A stretch of DNA of 63,332 nucleotides, the filler included, from Octopus bimaculoides (lineage: Eukaryota): NCBI RefSeq assembly GCF_001194135.2. It is 8 parts of 7 records of this genome, joined end to end, with 100 filler letters (N's around TTAATTAATTAA, not from the genome) between each part and the next. Parts side by side here need not be neighbours in the genome. Positions count along the whole stretch, not along the records: positions 1 to 14,423 come from NC_068983.1; positions 14,524 to 37,385 come from NC_068984.1; positions 37,486 to 39,472 come from NC_068995.1; positions 39,573 to 43,318 come from NC_068981.1; positions 43,419 to 49,239 come from NC_068983.1; positions 49,340 to 59,434 come from NC_068982.1; positions 59,535 to 61,633 come from NC_069004.1; 1 more part is not named here. One strand, written 5' to 3'. A program made the position numbers and the translations under genes. The notes beneath the pieces are model-generated. The model saw nothing but the letters and a program-made list of their open reading frames with translations, was not told where the DNA came from and did no database searches. Positions 320 to 61,530 of the stretch are shown piece by piece; the stretch's first letter is position 1; each line of letters starts with the position of its first letter.

Positions 320-375
320 TAATATCTAATGAGGATGTCTTTTAGCTCCGGCATCTGAAACTCTGAGTATCATTA
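320..375 (+). ncRNA. Degenerate type I hammerhead ribozyme-like motif
   Basis: CTAATGA (core CTGATGA with one change), 7-bp stem II GGATGTC/GGCATCT, GAAAC, stem III ACT-CTG-AGT, A, then partial stem I (taat/atta) with two proximal mismatches. Confidence 0.4.
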
Positions 376-675
376 TGAAAACTAACTGATTGTCCTATAT
401 TATATTTTTATAGATAAATTCCTCTATTTACATATCGAGGTCTCTTTCATTCTTTTGTTGTCATATTATTATCACTATATATATATATATATATATATAT
501 ATATATATATAAAGTAGTTGTGTACTGCCAACTTAACATGACAGTCCCAATAAGGGAATATACTACTGCTATTTAGCCCTAAGAAGCTGAACCGCTTCCT
601 GTCGGCCTTGATACATTTCCTGTGTCCTTATGTTTGCGAGAGGGAGACAAACTCCTCCACCCACACTAGCCTTCA

Positions 676-718
676 TTCAGGGACATCATTCTGAGTTTTT
701 GCTCGGTATCAGCCTTAA
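676..718 (-). ncRNA. Hammerhead ribozyme, left arm of fold-back copy 1 (mutated)
   Basis: Minus strand reads TTAAGG CTGATAC C GAG CAAAAA CTC A GAATG AT GTC CCTGAA; core positions mutated. Confidence 0.6.
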
Positions 719-839
719 GTAGCACGGCCAGCTGGTTGAAAAATCTGTTAACTCCTCGCAAACATGTTAATGTGTTTCACTGAAATAATATATGTTTGCG
801 AGAGATTGACAGACTTCTTCAACCAGCTGGTCGTGCTAC

Positions 840-882
840 TTCAGGTTGATGACGAGCAAAGACTCAGAAACATGTCCCTGAA
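840..882 (+). ncRNA. Type I hammerhead ribozyme, right arm of fold-back copy 1 (C3 to U change)
   Basis: TTCAGG TTGATGA C GAG CAAAGA CTC A GAAAC AT GTC CCTGAA; stem I TTCAGG/CCTGAA perfect; palindromic stem III ACATGT. Confidence 0.8.
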
Positions 883-1861
883 TGCAGGCTAGGCTGGGTG
901 GAGGAGTTTGTCTCCCCCTCGCAAACATAAGGAGACAGGAAATGTGTCAAGGCCGACAGGAAGCGGTCCAGCTTCCTAGGGCTAAATAGCAATAGTATAA
1001 TCCCTTATTGGGACTGTCACGTTAAGTTTGCAGTATACAAGTACTTTATCGCATCACTACTGCTTAAGTTTGTCTGAGAGATTTAGAAATGTATTATTTC
1101 TAATATATATATATATATATATATATATATATATATATATATATATATTTATGTATGTATGTATGTATGTATGTATGTATGTATGTACGTATGTATGTAT
1201 GTATGTATGCCCACACTCCTAATTTAAATTATAAAAGATATCGATGTACTAGACTATATTACAGTAGATATTATGGAATATCTTACTGACAGCACTTATA
1301 AATTATGCAGACGTTAATTAATTCTCATTTGAATGGTTTTACGTTCAGTAACCTAGACGACGAAAACATATGAGAATATGAAGCTAATTAACTTTCATTT
1401 CATAAACTATATCCCAATGTCAGGAAAAAACACGTTACTGTGTGTTGCCAAATGGTGGGGAAAGCATTTGACCTCATTTGTGGTATTTCAACTATAACGA
1501 AGACCACCTTAACCCATTAGCATTTAAGCTGACCGTATTTAACTAAAATACTCTACCTTTTTTATGTTCAAACTGGCCCAGATTAAGCTTTTTGTCGCCT
1601 ACTCTACAATGTCACTCTAAAAATAAGCAATCACACCATCAAAATCTCTAAGATACGAGATAATGCGTGATTAATTCAAAGTAATGTGAATAGATAAGAA
1701 TTAAATTTGACTGAGTAGTTTTAAAGATAAAGAATCGAATTTTCGTTATGATTACCTCTGTCTGGCTGCCTGTCTCACCTTTTATCCTCCATTCCTTTAT
1801 CCTCCCTCTCCTTCTCTAATTCTCGCCCATTTTCTCTCCACTTTCTTTCCCCCTCTTCTTC

Positions 1862-2165
1862 CTTGCAAGTGGCTGAGCACTCCACAGACACATGTACCCT
1901 TAAAGTAGTTCTCGGGGATATTCAGCGTGACACAGTGCGACAAGGCTGACCCTTTGAATTACAAGCACAACAGAAACAGGAAGTAAGAGTGAGAAAAAGC
2001 TGTGGTGAAAGAGTACAGTAGGGCTTGCCACCATCCCCTGCCGGGGCCTCGTGGAGCTTTAGGTGTTTTCACTCAATAAACACTCACAACGTCCGGTCTG
2101 GGAATCGAAACCGCGGTCCTATGACCGCGAGTCCGCTGCCCTAACAACTAGGCCATTGCGCCTCC
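1862..2165 (-). mobile_element. tRNA-derived SINE (type B head; 3' module shared with CORE-like type C)
   Basis: Minus head TGGAGGCGCAATGGCCTAGTTGTTAGGG...GGTTTCGATTCC (A/B boxes); 3' part matches 52920-53030 and 61970-62090. Confidence 0.85.
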
Positions 2166-2339
2166 ACTAAGATTTAAAAGACGATGGTTAAAACAAGAGA
2201 TAATGAAAAATACATACATACATACATACATACACACACACGTACATACATACATACATACATACATACATACATACATACATAACTACATAGCAATTGG
2301 TCAATGGTTTCAGCGGTCTTGGCATCAGCAAAAGTTCGC

Positions 2340-2465
2340 CATTACTTTCTGCTGGAGCTGCGTGGAGCTTAGGTGTTTCGCTCATAAAGACACACATAGC
2401 CCGGTCTGAGATTCGAACCCACTATCCCTTGACCTCGAGTCCACTGCTCCACAATTACATGACTT
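2340..2465 (-). mobile_element. Degraded SINE head, same type as 1862-2165
   Basis: GTGGAGCTTAGGTGTTTCGCTC...CCGGTCTGAGATTCGAACC parallels 2051-2110. Confidence 0.7.
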
Positions 2466-2599
2466 GCTATAAGTTAATTCATTTAAGTTTAACCAAAGAA
2501 GTCTTTTACATCTTCGCTTCTGAGTCTCGTTGGATAACTCATCATTTGCCATTTACTCTTTATTTCAAGTAAGAATTTCCCCCAAAAGAATACATAAAG

Positions 2600-3005
2600 G
2601 GCAGGCATGATTTTGTGCTTTTGTGCTTCCCAGCCATGTGGCCTTGGGTTCAGTTCTACGGCGTAGCACTACCATATGCAAGTATCATCTATAGCCCCGG
2701 GCCGAAAGTATTTGGAGGTGGAAATTGAAGAAAAAGAACCCCATTGTATGTGTGTATGTGTTTGTATGTATCTTTATTTAGATATCACCTGATGGTTGCA
2801 AATAAGCATCATCCTTATAATGCTTGGTTTTTGCCTTTCCGTTCTTCCATGAAAACATGCCCGAAAAACAAGGAGAAATATTACTTTGCTTTGTAACAGA
2901 TGAGGGTTGGCAACAAGAAGTATACCCGGCCGTGGAAAGCTGCCTCCGCAAATTAAGTCTAAACATTGCAACCATGGAAAAGTGGACGTTGAATGATGAC
3001 GATAA
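2600..3005 (+). mobile_element. SINE with type A head and RTE-like 3' tail
   Basis: Head resembles 7222-7380; tail CATGGAAAAGTGGACGTTGAATGATGACGAT resembles the RTE-X 3' end at 33840-33890. Confidence 0.65.
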
Positions 3006-59434: not shown

Positions 59435-59534
59435 NNNNNNNNNNNNNNNNNNNNNNNNNNNNNNNNNNNNNNNNNNNNTTAATTAATTAANNNNNNNNNN
59501 NNNNNNNNNNNNNNNNNNNNNNNNNNNNNNNNNN
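59435..59534. other. Artificial scaffold spacer
   Basis: Linker at 59479-59490. Confidence 0.95.
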
Positions 59535-59564
59535 CATACACACACACACACACACACACACGAC

Positions 59565-59695
59565 GATCTTTCACAGTTTTCGTCCACCAAATCCGCTAAC
59601 AAGGCATAGGTCAGCACAGTGCTATTGTAAAAGACACTTGCCGAGGGTGTTACGCAGTGGAACTGAACCCAAAATTACGTGGTTGCAAAGCAAGT
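59565..59695 (-). mobile_element. SINE type A, 5' part
   Basis: CAGTTTTCGTCCACCAAATCC...GACACTTGCCGAGGGTG...GGAACTGAACCC. Confidence 0.75.
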
Positions 59696-60078
59696 AATAT
59701 ATCTTGTTACTAGTTATTTAACAAAAGCCTGTCAACTACCCGTTTCTCACTGTCGATGTTAATGCGAATTTACGAGATTTTCATGCTTAGAAAGATTATG
59801 TTTAATGAACGAACGCTGTTCAAACAAGGTGTGGAGGGTGGGTGGTGTTTTGAGGAGTCAACGTTTTATGTTCAAACAACGTCTTGATAAGAATTAACTC
59901 CTGAATTCTAATGAGGAGATTAAATGAACGAACAAAAACACACATGTATGCACAGCCAGAAATTATTTTAAATATCAAAAGCAAGAAATCTTATACACAC
60001 ACACACACATACGCACACACACGCGCGCACGCTCGCGCGCGTACGATTGCAGGATTATATCAAATAACACAGATTCTT

Positions 60079-60161
60079 AAAATGGCGGCCGGTAATAAAT
60101 TTTCGTTTCAATTGGGAAACTGAAATTCTGTAGAAAAAGTGGGTAGACGAAGGTACTTCCG
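60079..60161. promoter_or_regulatory. Possible housekeeping-type promoter motifs (YY1-like and ETS-like)
   Basis: AAAATGGCGGC at 60079-60089 and ACTTCCG at 60155-60161, with a CpG-rich stretch just upstream; no linked gene seen. Confidence 0.3.
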
Positions 60162-60654
60162 TAAATACCGAAGGAAGAGACAAGCTAATTAACGATATGT
60201 NNNNNNNNNNNNNNNNNNNNNNNNNNNNNNNNNNNNNNNNNNNNNNNNNNNNNNNNNNNNNNNNNNNNNNNNNNNNNNNNNNNNNNNNNNNNNNNNNNNN
60301 NNNNNNNNNNNNNNNNNNNNNNNNNNNNNNNNNNNNNNNNNNNNNNNNNNNNNNNNNNNNNNNNNNNNNNNNNNNNNNNNNNNNNNNNNNNNNNNNNNNN
60401 NNNNNNNNNNNNNNNNNNNNNNNNNNNNNNNNNNNNNNNNNNNNNNNNNNNNNNNNNNNNNNNNNNNNNNNNNNNNNNNNNNNNNNNNNNNNNNNNNNNN
60501 NNNNNNNNNNNNNNNNNNNNNNNNNNNNNNNNNNNNNNNNNNNNNNNNNNNNNNNNNNNNNNNNNNNNNNNNNNNNNNNNNNNNNNNNNATACAAAGAAT
60601 ATATATACATGTATACACACATATATGTACATACTTACATCTACATGTGTATAT

Positions 60655-60800
60655 ACATGCATATCAGGGTACAGGACGTTAGAACAATAAACTACAGACA
60701 ACGGAACGAACACATAGGAAAACGGAAAGCCCCTTGGAATATCCATTCATCAGCTGTCTCTATTCTATCTAGACGTTTCGAAGACCAGACAGGACGTACT
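60655..60800 (-). mobile_element. Putative PLE terminal-repeat family member with HHR half-motifs
   Basis: Homologous to 10700-10900; minus strand GAAACGTC (60772-60779) and CTGATGA (60747-60753). Confidence 0.55.
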
Positions 60801-61022
60801 CTGTGTATGTTTGTGTGTCTGTGTTTGTCACCCCACCATCGCTTGACAACCGATGCTGGTTTGTTTACGTCCCCGTAACTTAGCGGTTCGGCAAAAGAGA
60901 CCGATAGAATAAGTACTAGGCTTACAAAGAATAAGTCCAGGGGTCAATTTGCTCGACTAAAAAGGCGGTGCTCCAGCATGGCCGCAGTCAAATAACTGAA
61001 ACAAGTAAAAGAGTAAAAGAGT
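60800..61022 (+). mobile_element. SINE type A, young-looking 3' half
   Basis: Near-consensus CGCTTGACAACCGATGCTGG...GGCGGTGCTCCAGCATGGCCGCAGTC...GTAAAAGAGTAAAAGAG with CpGs intact. Confidence 0.9.
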
Positions 61023-61495
61023 ATATTTACACACTACGTCCTATTTACTGTTTGTCCTACAAAACCTATTAGATAGATAGATAGATAGATAGATAGATAG
61101 ATGCACTAATGTACATACATATACACATACGTGTGTATGTGTATGTGTATAAATCCCCCTGCTCGCCGCCACCCCCAACCCATCACCAAATATATATCCT
61201 TCATCTTGGTCGGTTGTTCGAAAAATATTCAACAGGAGGCCAGAAACTCGCTTTTACAAAGCGTCTTCTCTCTATGACCAGCGAAATATCAGCTGCCAAG
61301 GGAAATCAAAAATGACATTTATCTAATTTTAGCCTCGCTGCTATTTTCTACAAATTAAACCCATCTAAATAACCGACTTGAACACAACTTGTTCCGCATA
61401 CATACATACATACATACATATACATATATATGTAACCTCGTGGGCATCGGTACCATTTTCCTCTTTCTCCGTTCTTCCATTCTCCGAACTTTCCA

Positions 61496-61530
61496 TCTTT
61501 CCGACGAAGGGCTACGCCCGAAACGTCATA
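61496..61530 (+). ncRNA. Minimal PLE-type hammerhead (U4 to C change) in a probable PLE 3' region (~61180-61630)
   Basis: CCGACGA A GGGC TAC GCCC GAAAC GTC; palindromic ACGT stem III; stem I weak; homologue at 53105-53135. Confidence 0.65.

What the first reader, a model, noticed from the sequence alone, without database searches (positions are those of the whole stretch)
320..61530. Window-wide survey: several unrelated hammerhead families
Seen: HHR or HHR-like motifs with different flanks at 320-375(+), 676-718(-), 840-882(+), 5245-5315(-), 10820-10850(-), 11833-11875(-), 12120-12162(+), 23498-23565(+), 35724-35809(+), 53105-53135(+) and 61496-61530(+), plus core-only hits at 51684-51690(-) and 60747-60753(-). 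Two coding PLE fragments (44200-45400, 49480-49720) are also present. Established: PLE terminal repeats carry HHRs. Inference: this genome holds a very dense, diverse ribozyme-bearing PLE/retrozyme population that protein- and TIR-based annotation would miss.
Basis: partly seen in the sequence, partly recalled or inferred. Interest (0 to 1): 0.75.

Follow-up and report, generated by a model that had tools for sequence, protein, structure and literature searches.

The report
Rewired hammerheads among octopus retroelement ribozymes
This octopus-like genome is strewn with ordinary self-cutting RNA motifs left by jumping genes, but two hits in the window belong to a family of over 2,800 copies predicted to fold into a re-ordered, core-opened form of that RNA, the same form seen at the tails of Naiad jumping genes, which were reported to lack the usual one; cutting is untested.

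Summary
The survey is half right, and it undersells its best hit. Three of the 11 listed motifs are intact type I hammerheads; most others are decayed copies of real families; 51684 is chance; an intact one at 43950-43991(-), behind the Penelope-like ORF, was missed. Density is far above chance: 19 intact motifs in 674 kb of evenly sampled genome against 1.05 in shuffles. That part is known in kind (Penelope-like elements, retrozymes).

The hits at 10820(-) and 60747(-) are damaged copies of something else: a family (2,802 exact matches, control 0) with hammerhead blocks in non-circular order. Stem II pairs with an upstream strand (60 of 74 copies), and two extra helices meet at the A9/G10.1 gap (44 of 61). 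The cut-site base is never G (74 of 74), and 5' truncations pile up just after the predicted cut. The same design ends Naiad elements here (274 matches) and, read by eye, 16 of 46 published Naiad consensus ends show a non-circular order. I found no paper on it. This scan noted it before, on this and other genomes. Cleavage is untested.

The parts
320..375 (+). Decayed type I hammerhead (core damaged); intact relatives elsewhere
   Evidence: (L087:6143)
512..1101 (.). Family A insertion: two head-to-head partial copies of a 351-nt non-coding unit
676..718 (-). Family A hammerhead, decayed
840..882 (+). Family A minimal type I hammerhead, stems intact, first core base C changed to T
5248..5311 (-). 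Type I hammerhead with long stem II; relative at L110
10700..10911 (-). Family B (subfamily B2) 3' end: non-circular, core-opened hammerhead, decayed and 5'-truncated; predicted cut between 10890 and 10889; core 10849-10843
11611..12331 (.). Family A insertion: inverted pair of partial units
11833..11875 (-). Family A minimal type I hammerhead, intact (6-bp stem I, palindromic stem III)
12120..12162 (+). Family A hammerhead with broken stem I
23498..23565 (+). Probably decayed type I hammerhead; resembles intact motif at L087:5485 by eye only
35724..35809 (+). Type I hammerhead-like motif with long stem II; relatives at L061 and L078
43950..43991 (-).
44230..45389 (-). Broken Penelope-like RT plus C-terminal GIY-YIG coding region (family D), with a 5' inversion
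49483..49791 (-). C-terminal piece of a PLE-type endonuclease; no hammerhead found next to it
51684..51690 (-). Chance core heptamer, single copy
53105..53135 (+). Probably decayed type I hammerhead of the family-C kind
60640..60805 (-). Family B (young subfamily B1) 3' end: non-circular, core-opened hammerhead, 5'-truncated just upstream of stem III; predicted cut between 60793 and 60792; core 60753-60747
61440..61625 (+). Family C: young short element in (TA)n with a CCGA-type core and a one-pair stem I

Best explanation
The window's motifs are tail ends of Penelope-like retroelements and their non-coding parasites, and family B (10820, 60747) carries hammerhead core blocks in a non-circular order that are predicted to fold into a likely self-cutting RNA with an opened core. 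Shown in sequence, 5' to 3': a helix strand, a hairpin, the first strand of stem II, an outer helix strand, the stem III strand with the cut site and a stem I strand, then the stem II strand with GAAA and stem III, then the stem I strand with CUGAUGA. Inferred fold: A9 is not joined to G10.1; the strand after A9 pairs with the far upstream strand, so stem II, the hairpin, that helix and the core meet in a four-way junction. Inferred function: the cut frees element RNA from read-through or tandem transcripts and sets its 5' end; a Penelope-type reverse transcriptase copies the RNA into (TA)n repeats and often runs off at that end. Autonomous Naiad elements in this genome end in the same design, so family B is likely a non-coding passenger of a Naiad-type enzyme. 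The other families carry ordinary minimal type I hammerheads that would cut as dimers.
For: Copy number: 2,802 exact matches of the two-block pattern, control 0; Naiad-type version 274, control 0. Pairing in 44 distinct B copies: stem I 97%, stem III 96%, outer helix 83% of cells paired, with two-sided changes in each; slid controls 34-56% against 91%. Stem II: 5 or more Watson-Crick pairs with the upstream strand at a fixed offset in 60 of 74 copies, control window 0 of 74, and three of its five pairs switch together between B and N. Four-way junction in exact register in 44 of 61 copies; slid controls 12, 3, 9, 7 and 1. Base at the cut site C, A or T in 74 of 74 and 44 of 44. 5' junctions: 36 of 39 listed loci lie from 2 nt before to about 10 nt after the predicted cut, 3 in the 19 nt further upstream (hand tally; p=3e-12); minus-strand counts give about 23 per nt there against about 6 per nt in the next 21 nt downstream; 15 against 4 in an independent reading of 70 copies. 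L264 runs from a C-terminal RT through a 3' UTR into the motif and matches the published Naiad_Obim end by eye. Published Naiad ends show non-circular orders in 16 of 46 viewed.
Against: No cleavage assay. RNA reads cover B1 but show no pile-up of read starts or ends at the cut (unstranded, fragmented libraries, diverged copies). A weak contiguous stem II (3 pairs counting G-U in 53 of 74; 3 Watson-Crick pairs in 17 of 74) also exists. Copies are related, so pair counts are not independent events, and the search pattern fixed part of stems I, II and III. No coding region was found attached to family B among 105 loci; one adjacent PLE fragment (L193) proved unrelated. TA microhomology shapes where junctions fall. 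Both window copies are damaged. The pseudoknot-free fold of an intact B1 copy is not unusually stable (z +1.24). Naiad consensus ends were read by eye only; 28 of 46 showed nothing clear in the last 420-450 nt.
Confidence: 0.72

Rival explanations
1. Family B is a plain type-SGC hammerhead: stem II is made by the three bases right after CUGAUGA-A, and the upstream pairing is an off-state or scaffold.
For: [quoted passage not shown]
Against: 0 of 14 N copies reach three contiguous pairs; the upstream strand gives 5-7 Watson-Crick pairs with compensating changes; the bases after A9 have their own partner in register.
Confidence: 0.12
2. The motif is a hammerhead relic that no longer cuts; it is kept as a protein-binding or priming structure, and truncations cluster because the enzyme stalls or finds TA microhomology there.
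For: Family C amplified recently with a broken stem I, so cutting is not always needed; 8 of 9 Xenopus retrozyme dimers did not cut in vitro (bioRxiv 2026.07.22.740005); no read-end pile-up; many junctions sit on TA steps.
Against: Core letters are kept, the cut-site base varies among C, A and T but is never G, and junction density drops about 8- to 20-fold exactly upstream of the predicted cut although TA steps occur there too.
Confidence: 0.11
3. The same helices form between two RNA molecules or two tandem units, so the ribozyme works in trans as a dimer rather than as one knotted RNA.
For: The outer helix abuts stem I with no linker, which is a tight geometry (sequence); PLE hammerheads often act as dimers (PMC4209133, PMC7229834, passages); family B occurs as partial tandems.
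Against: Stem III is not palindromic in most subfamilies and covaries with its own upstream partner; Eckert et al. report similar zero-linker cases among their SGC ribozymes.
Confidence: 0.05

Closest known systems
Type-SGC and type-CSG non-circularly permuted hammerheads (Eckert et al. 2023, PMC10085705; read: abstract, Methods, parts 3-6 of 8)
   Same: Cut-site block, then GAAA block, then CUGANGA block; short linker between stems I and II; all core letters kept. Six nematode Naiad ends look like strict type CSG by eye.
   Different: In families B and N the first strand of stem II lies upstream of everything and is not joined to CUGANGA, which breaks the paper's block C; two more helices enter at A9/G10.1. 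The published SGC RNAs came from metatranscriptomes and none from genomes of known organisms; these sit in animal retroelements in thousands of copies.
Naiad clade of Penelope-like elements (Craig et al. 2021, PMC8557442; read: passages, File S1 part 1, File S5 excerpts)
   Same: C-terminal RT followed by a long 3' UTR (family N), (TA)n targets, 5' truncation, partial tandems, inverted 5' copies and short tails.
   Different: Reported to lack canonical hammerheads, with 8 'half cores' unexplained; here the half cores resolve as re-ordered hammerheads. Family B has no ORF.
Minimal type I hammerheads of PLE pseudo-LTRs (Cervera and de la Pena 2014, PMC4209133; passages)
   Same: Families A, C, D and the single hits: short palindromic stem III, bulge next to helix II, opposite-strand pairs 100-700 bp apart.
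   Different: No real difference; a CCGA core variant is common here (4 of 19 sampled motifs).
Metazoan non-LTR retrozymes (Cervera and de la Pena 2020, PMC7229834, passages; Li et al. 2026, bioRxiv 10.64898/2026.07.22.740005, parts 1-3 of 5)
   Same: Family A: 351-nt non-coding unit with one type I hammerhead, like the 350-390-bp mussel units.
   Different: Family A copies seen are 1 to 1.1 units with inversions; none of 15 loci holds two hammerheads in direct tandem intact; circular RNA not shown.

Membership tests
Hammerhead ribozyme (families B and N) | CUGANGA, GAAA and UH core letters with H not G | tested here: met
   H is C, A or T in 74 of 74
Hammerhead ribozyme (families B and N) | Stems I, II and III around the core, with covariation | tested here: met
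Hammerhead ribozyme (families B and N) | Site-specific self-cleavage | not testable with these tools
   Only indirect: truncation pile-up; no read-end signal
Type-SGC hammerhead | Order cut site, GAAA, CUGANGA | tested here: met
Type-SGC hammerhead | Stem II strand directly after CUGANGA (block C unbroken) | tested here: not met
   Upstream strand 60 of 74 with 5+ Watson-Crick pairs; contiguous 17 of 74 with 3, and 0 of 14 in N
Type I hammerhead (families A, D, 5245) | Order CUGANGA, GAAA, cut site, with stem I open | tested here: met
Naiad PLE (family N) | RT at the C-terminus followed by the 3' UTR | tested here: met
   L264; matches Naiad_Obim by eye; Pfam blank on the short pieces
Naiad PLE (family N) | N-terminal GIY-YIG and CxC motif | not tested
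   Loci held only 1.5 kb upstream
Naiad PLE (family B) | Own RT/endonuclease ORF | tested here: not met
   No attached PLE ORF among 105 loci, tested with three PLE fragments as queries; filed as a probable passenger, not a member
C-terminal-endonuclease PLE (family D) | RT, then GIY-YIG, then 3' UTR hammerhead | tested here: met
Non-LTR retrozyme (family A) | Short non-coding repeat unit with a type I hammerhead | tested here: met
   351-nt unit, longest open frame 52 codons
Non-LTR retrozyme (family A) | Tandem units with two intact hammerheads | tested here: inconclusive
   Not seen in 15 loci; assembly gaps adjoin several
Non-LTR retrozyme (family A) | Abundant circular or monomer RNA | tested here: inconclusive
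   Reads cover the unit and show a unit-length joint that DNA tandems also explain; no ends at the cut

The most novel reading that the evidence does not exclude
Naiad retroelements did not lose the hammerhead: they carry it re-wired, as a core-opened four-way-junction form in octopus, coral, crustacean and acanthocephalan elements and as type CSG in nematode elements. These are the first non-circularly permuted ribozymes in animal genomes, they cut in vivo, and the cut sets the 5' end of the template, as recorded in thousands of truncated copies.
Probability: 0.65. Interest if true: 0.87.

Novelty: new variant of a known kind. Interest (0 to 1): 0.75.

Why it matters
It would overturn the published statement that Naiads, among the most abundant retroelements of invertebrates, lack a usable hammerhead, and would make ribozyme cleavage a near-general step of the Penelope-like life cycle. 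It would give non-circular hammerhead permutations, so far known only from environmental RNA and DNA, a host, a function and thousands of natural variants. It would show that the A9-G10.1 link of the best-studied ribozyme core can be opened, which every current descriptor forbids, so genome counts of ribozymes are too low. The open question of what PLE hammerheads do becomes testable with a 150-nt transcript and with junction statistics. The dense type I population alone is ordinary.

Tried and rejected
Rfam scan: swamped by microsatellite matches, no hammerhead among the 150 listed. The repeat finder: dominated by simple repeats. My first reading of family B as strict type SGC was replaced after testing the upstream stem II. 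One search used a mis-numbered structure string and is discarded; one search is the corrected one. The junction recomputation failed (2 reference copies matched) and is discarded; only its test on the hand tally is used. A link of family B to the PLE fragment at L193 was rejected: none of 29 other copies of that endonuclease family has the B motif downstream. The SGC descriptor found 0 intact motifs in the 674-kb sample (shuffles 0.25), although a profile finds 3 good and 2 weak B copies there. No RNA holder on record was listed for B1. Raw reads gave no start or end pile-up at either predicted cut. The protein atlas was unavailable; the homologue search for 49483-49791 was blank. PMC5785218 was not held. 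Literature searches that found no report of permuted hammerheads in Naiads or animal genomes; subscription journals and bioRxiv supplements were not visible.
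Full report
Setting. The window is a pack of 8 stretches, 32-44% GC, rich in microsatellites and gaps, from a 2.34-Gb genome. It is octopus-like: one of its element families matches published Octopus Naiad consensus sequences by eye.

Checking the list. A type I descriptor passed 4 motifs in the window: 840(+), 5245(-), 11833(-) and an unlisted one at 43950-43991(-). Local dinucleotide shuffles gave 0.07-0.11 on average. Self-comparison puts 676, 840, 11833 and 12120 in one family (A) and 10820 and 60747 in another (B). 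The motifs at 320, 5245 and 35724 have relatives with hammerhead features in an 800-kb even sample of the genome. 23498 and 53105 found no BLAST relative and are called decayed by resemblance only. 51684 is unique in the genome. Bare core heptamers are weakly enriched at best (CTGANGA 42 against 25, maximum 37; CTGATGA 16 against 9.3, maximum 16).

Density. In 674,139 non-N bases from contigs C1-C17 the descriptor found 19 intact type I motifs against 1.05 in 20 shuffles, and 16 against 0.35 with a stricter stem I. That is about 28 per Mb, or roughly 50,000 in the genome if the sample is typical (inference). Published counts are over 6,000 in a coral and about 5,000 in a mussel (PMC7229834, passages).

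Ordinary families. Family A is a 351-nt non-coding unit with 2,646 candidates, inserted as about one unit with inverted 5' pieces and short tails, the layout described for Penelope-like elements (PMC8557442, passages). Reads from three raw RNA runs cover it but show no ends at the cut. Family D is a broken RT plus GIY-YIG element whose 3' UTR holds the missed hammerhead; 12 of 12 loci extend into the coding part. Family C is young (40 of 40 scored copies 99-100% identical) and has only one pair in stem I, so it spread without an intact monomer ribozyme.

Family B. Upstream of the CUGAUGA at 60753 lie a GAAA block and, before it, a cut-site block whose flanks pair with the other two blocks. This is the order S-G-C of Eckert et al. 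2023 (PMC10085705), who found it only in metatranscriptomes and state that none of their motifs, bar one weak bacterial case, came from genomes of known organisms. A pattern of the G and C blocks alone has 2,802 exact matches, control 0. Of 70 pattern-chosen copies (the first 30 listed plus 40 that I picked from the list for subfamily variety), 45 reached the upstream anchor and 44 distinct ones were aligned. Stem I was 97% paired, stem III 96%, the outer helix 83%, each with two-sided changes; the whole structure scored 91% against 34-56% when slid. Related copies inflate such counts.

The core is opened. Earlier notes of this scan suggested a split core, and I tested it. In 74 distinct copies of B and N with enough flank, the strand before GAAA makes 5 or more Watson-Crick pairs with a strand 21 nt (B) or 19 nt (N) upstream of the cut triplet in 60, a control window in 0, and the strand right after CUGAUGA makes 3 Watson-Crick pairs in 17 (3 pairs with G-U in 53; 0 of 14 in N). 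Three of five pairs switch together between B and N (a narrower capture gave 40 of 47). A hairpin ends directly before that upstream strand, and the bases directly before the hairpin pair with the bases directly after A9: exact register in 44 of 61 copies, against 12, 3, 9, 7 and 1 in slid controls, with the first pair A-T in B and T-A in N. Stem II, the hairpin, this helix and the core thus form a four-way junction at the A9/G10.1 gap (inferred). This fails the unbroken block C that defines type SGC.

Signs of cutting. The base at the cut is C, A or T in 74 of 74 copies, as the hammerhead rule requires (established knowledge). Among 39 distinct loci listed with (TA)n within 30 nt upstream of the G block, 36 junctions lie from 2 nt before to about 10 nt after the predicted cut, 9 of them within 2 nt of it, and 3 further upstream (hand tally; binomial p=3e-12). 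Whole-genome minus-strand counts were 299 for that pattern and 117 for the next 21 nt downstream. The 70-copy set gave 15 junctions in the 13 nt at and after the cut and 4 in the next 24 nt, leaving out 3 at assembly gaps and re-reading 2 by eye. TA microhomology shifts the exact points. RNA reads cover B1 without a pile-up of ends; the libraries are unstranded and fragmented.

The Naiad link. Craig et al. 2021 report that Naiads lack canonical hammerheads and list 8 'half cores'. The published Naiad_Obim and Naiad_Ovul ends show the same design as family B. A short pattern from it has 274 matches here, control 0, and L264 runs from the RT C-terminus through the 3' UTR into the motif. A profile of B cores finds the N cores at E 2.5e-4 to 0.3 in 25 of 25 loci chosen for that motif, weak but in register. 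I read the last 420-450 nt of 46 of the 54 Naiad consensus sequences by eye. Six show the upstream stem II (Obim, Ovul, Amil, Anas, Plae, EuTe); four show S-G-C order with stems I and III but an unclear stem II (Ptep, Smim, Esco, and Sdum with a damaged core); six nematode ends show strict C-S-G order with all three stems (1-, 2-, 3_Nbra, Hcon, Hpol, Asuum); two are partial (Aacu, Bfor); 28 showed nothing clear. No PLE ORF was found attached to family B, so its dependence on a Naiad enzyme is inferred from shared ribozyme design, (TA)n targets and tandem or inverted insertions.

Novelty. Nine literature searches returned no report of non-circular hammerheads in animal genomes or Naiads; subscription papers are not covered. 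The scan itself noted this family before, in this genome and in others; those are unchecked notes and are not counted as support.

Verdict. The survey as written describes a real but known kind of population (interest about 0.35 on its own). Its two family B hits point to a new wiring of the hammerhead in a major retroelement clade, well supported by sequence and directly testable. Novelty: new variant of a known kind. Interest 0.75.

Noticed in passing
window 38664-39125 (-): Intron-free 154-codon frame with an LSM domain (Pfam E=1.4e-15), probably a retrocopy; a 48-nt inverted piece of it lies at 39352-39399 inside an 80-nt duplication.
   Followed up: partly
window 61440-61625 (+); L016-L027: Very young family C amplified with a CCGA core and a one-pair stem I, while older relatives (L060, L008) keep a 4-bp stem I.
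   Followed up: partly
L060, L120, L124, L130: A CCGA-type core (second base C) occurs in 5 of 19 sampled intact type I motifs from several families; whether it cuts is unknown to me.
   Followed up: no
L014:1835: RNA read ends pile up at an internal hairpin of family A, not at the ribozyme cut; the same hairpin marks many short inverted tails in DNA.
   Followed up: no
PMC8557442 File S5, bivalve and hemichordate Naiads: Their 3' ends show no hammerhead core in the part viewed but share another conserved GC-rich motif; it could be a different structured RNA.
   Followed up: no
window 32276-32879 and 48631-49239: Two copies (77%) of a LINE fragment with RT end and a cysteine-rich domain.
   Followed up: partly
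window 7219-7386, 7516-7724, 14257-14423, 18122-18288, 43507-43915 and others: Two abundant SINE-like families with about 10 copies each in the window.
   Followed up: no
window 4990-5132 and 5489-5632: A 144-nt direct repeat (96%) flanks the 5245 hammerhead, like a partial tandem unit of about 500 nt.
   Followed up: no
L056, L062, L071, L073: The commonest intact type I family in the even sample (4 of 19) is not among the window's hits.
   Followed up: no
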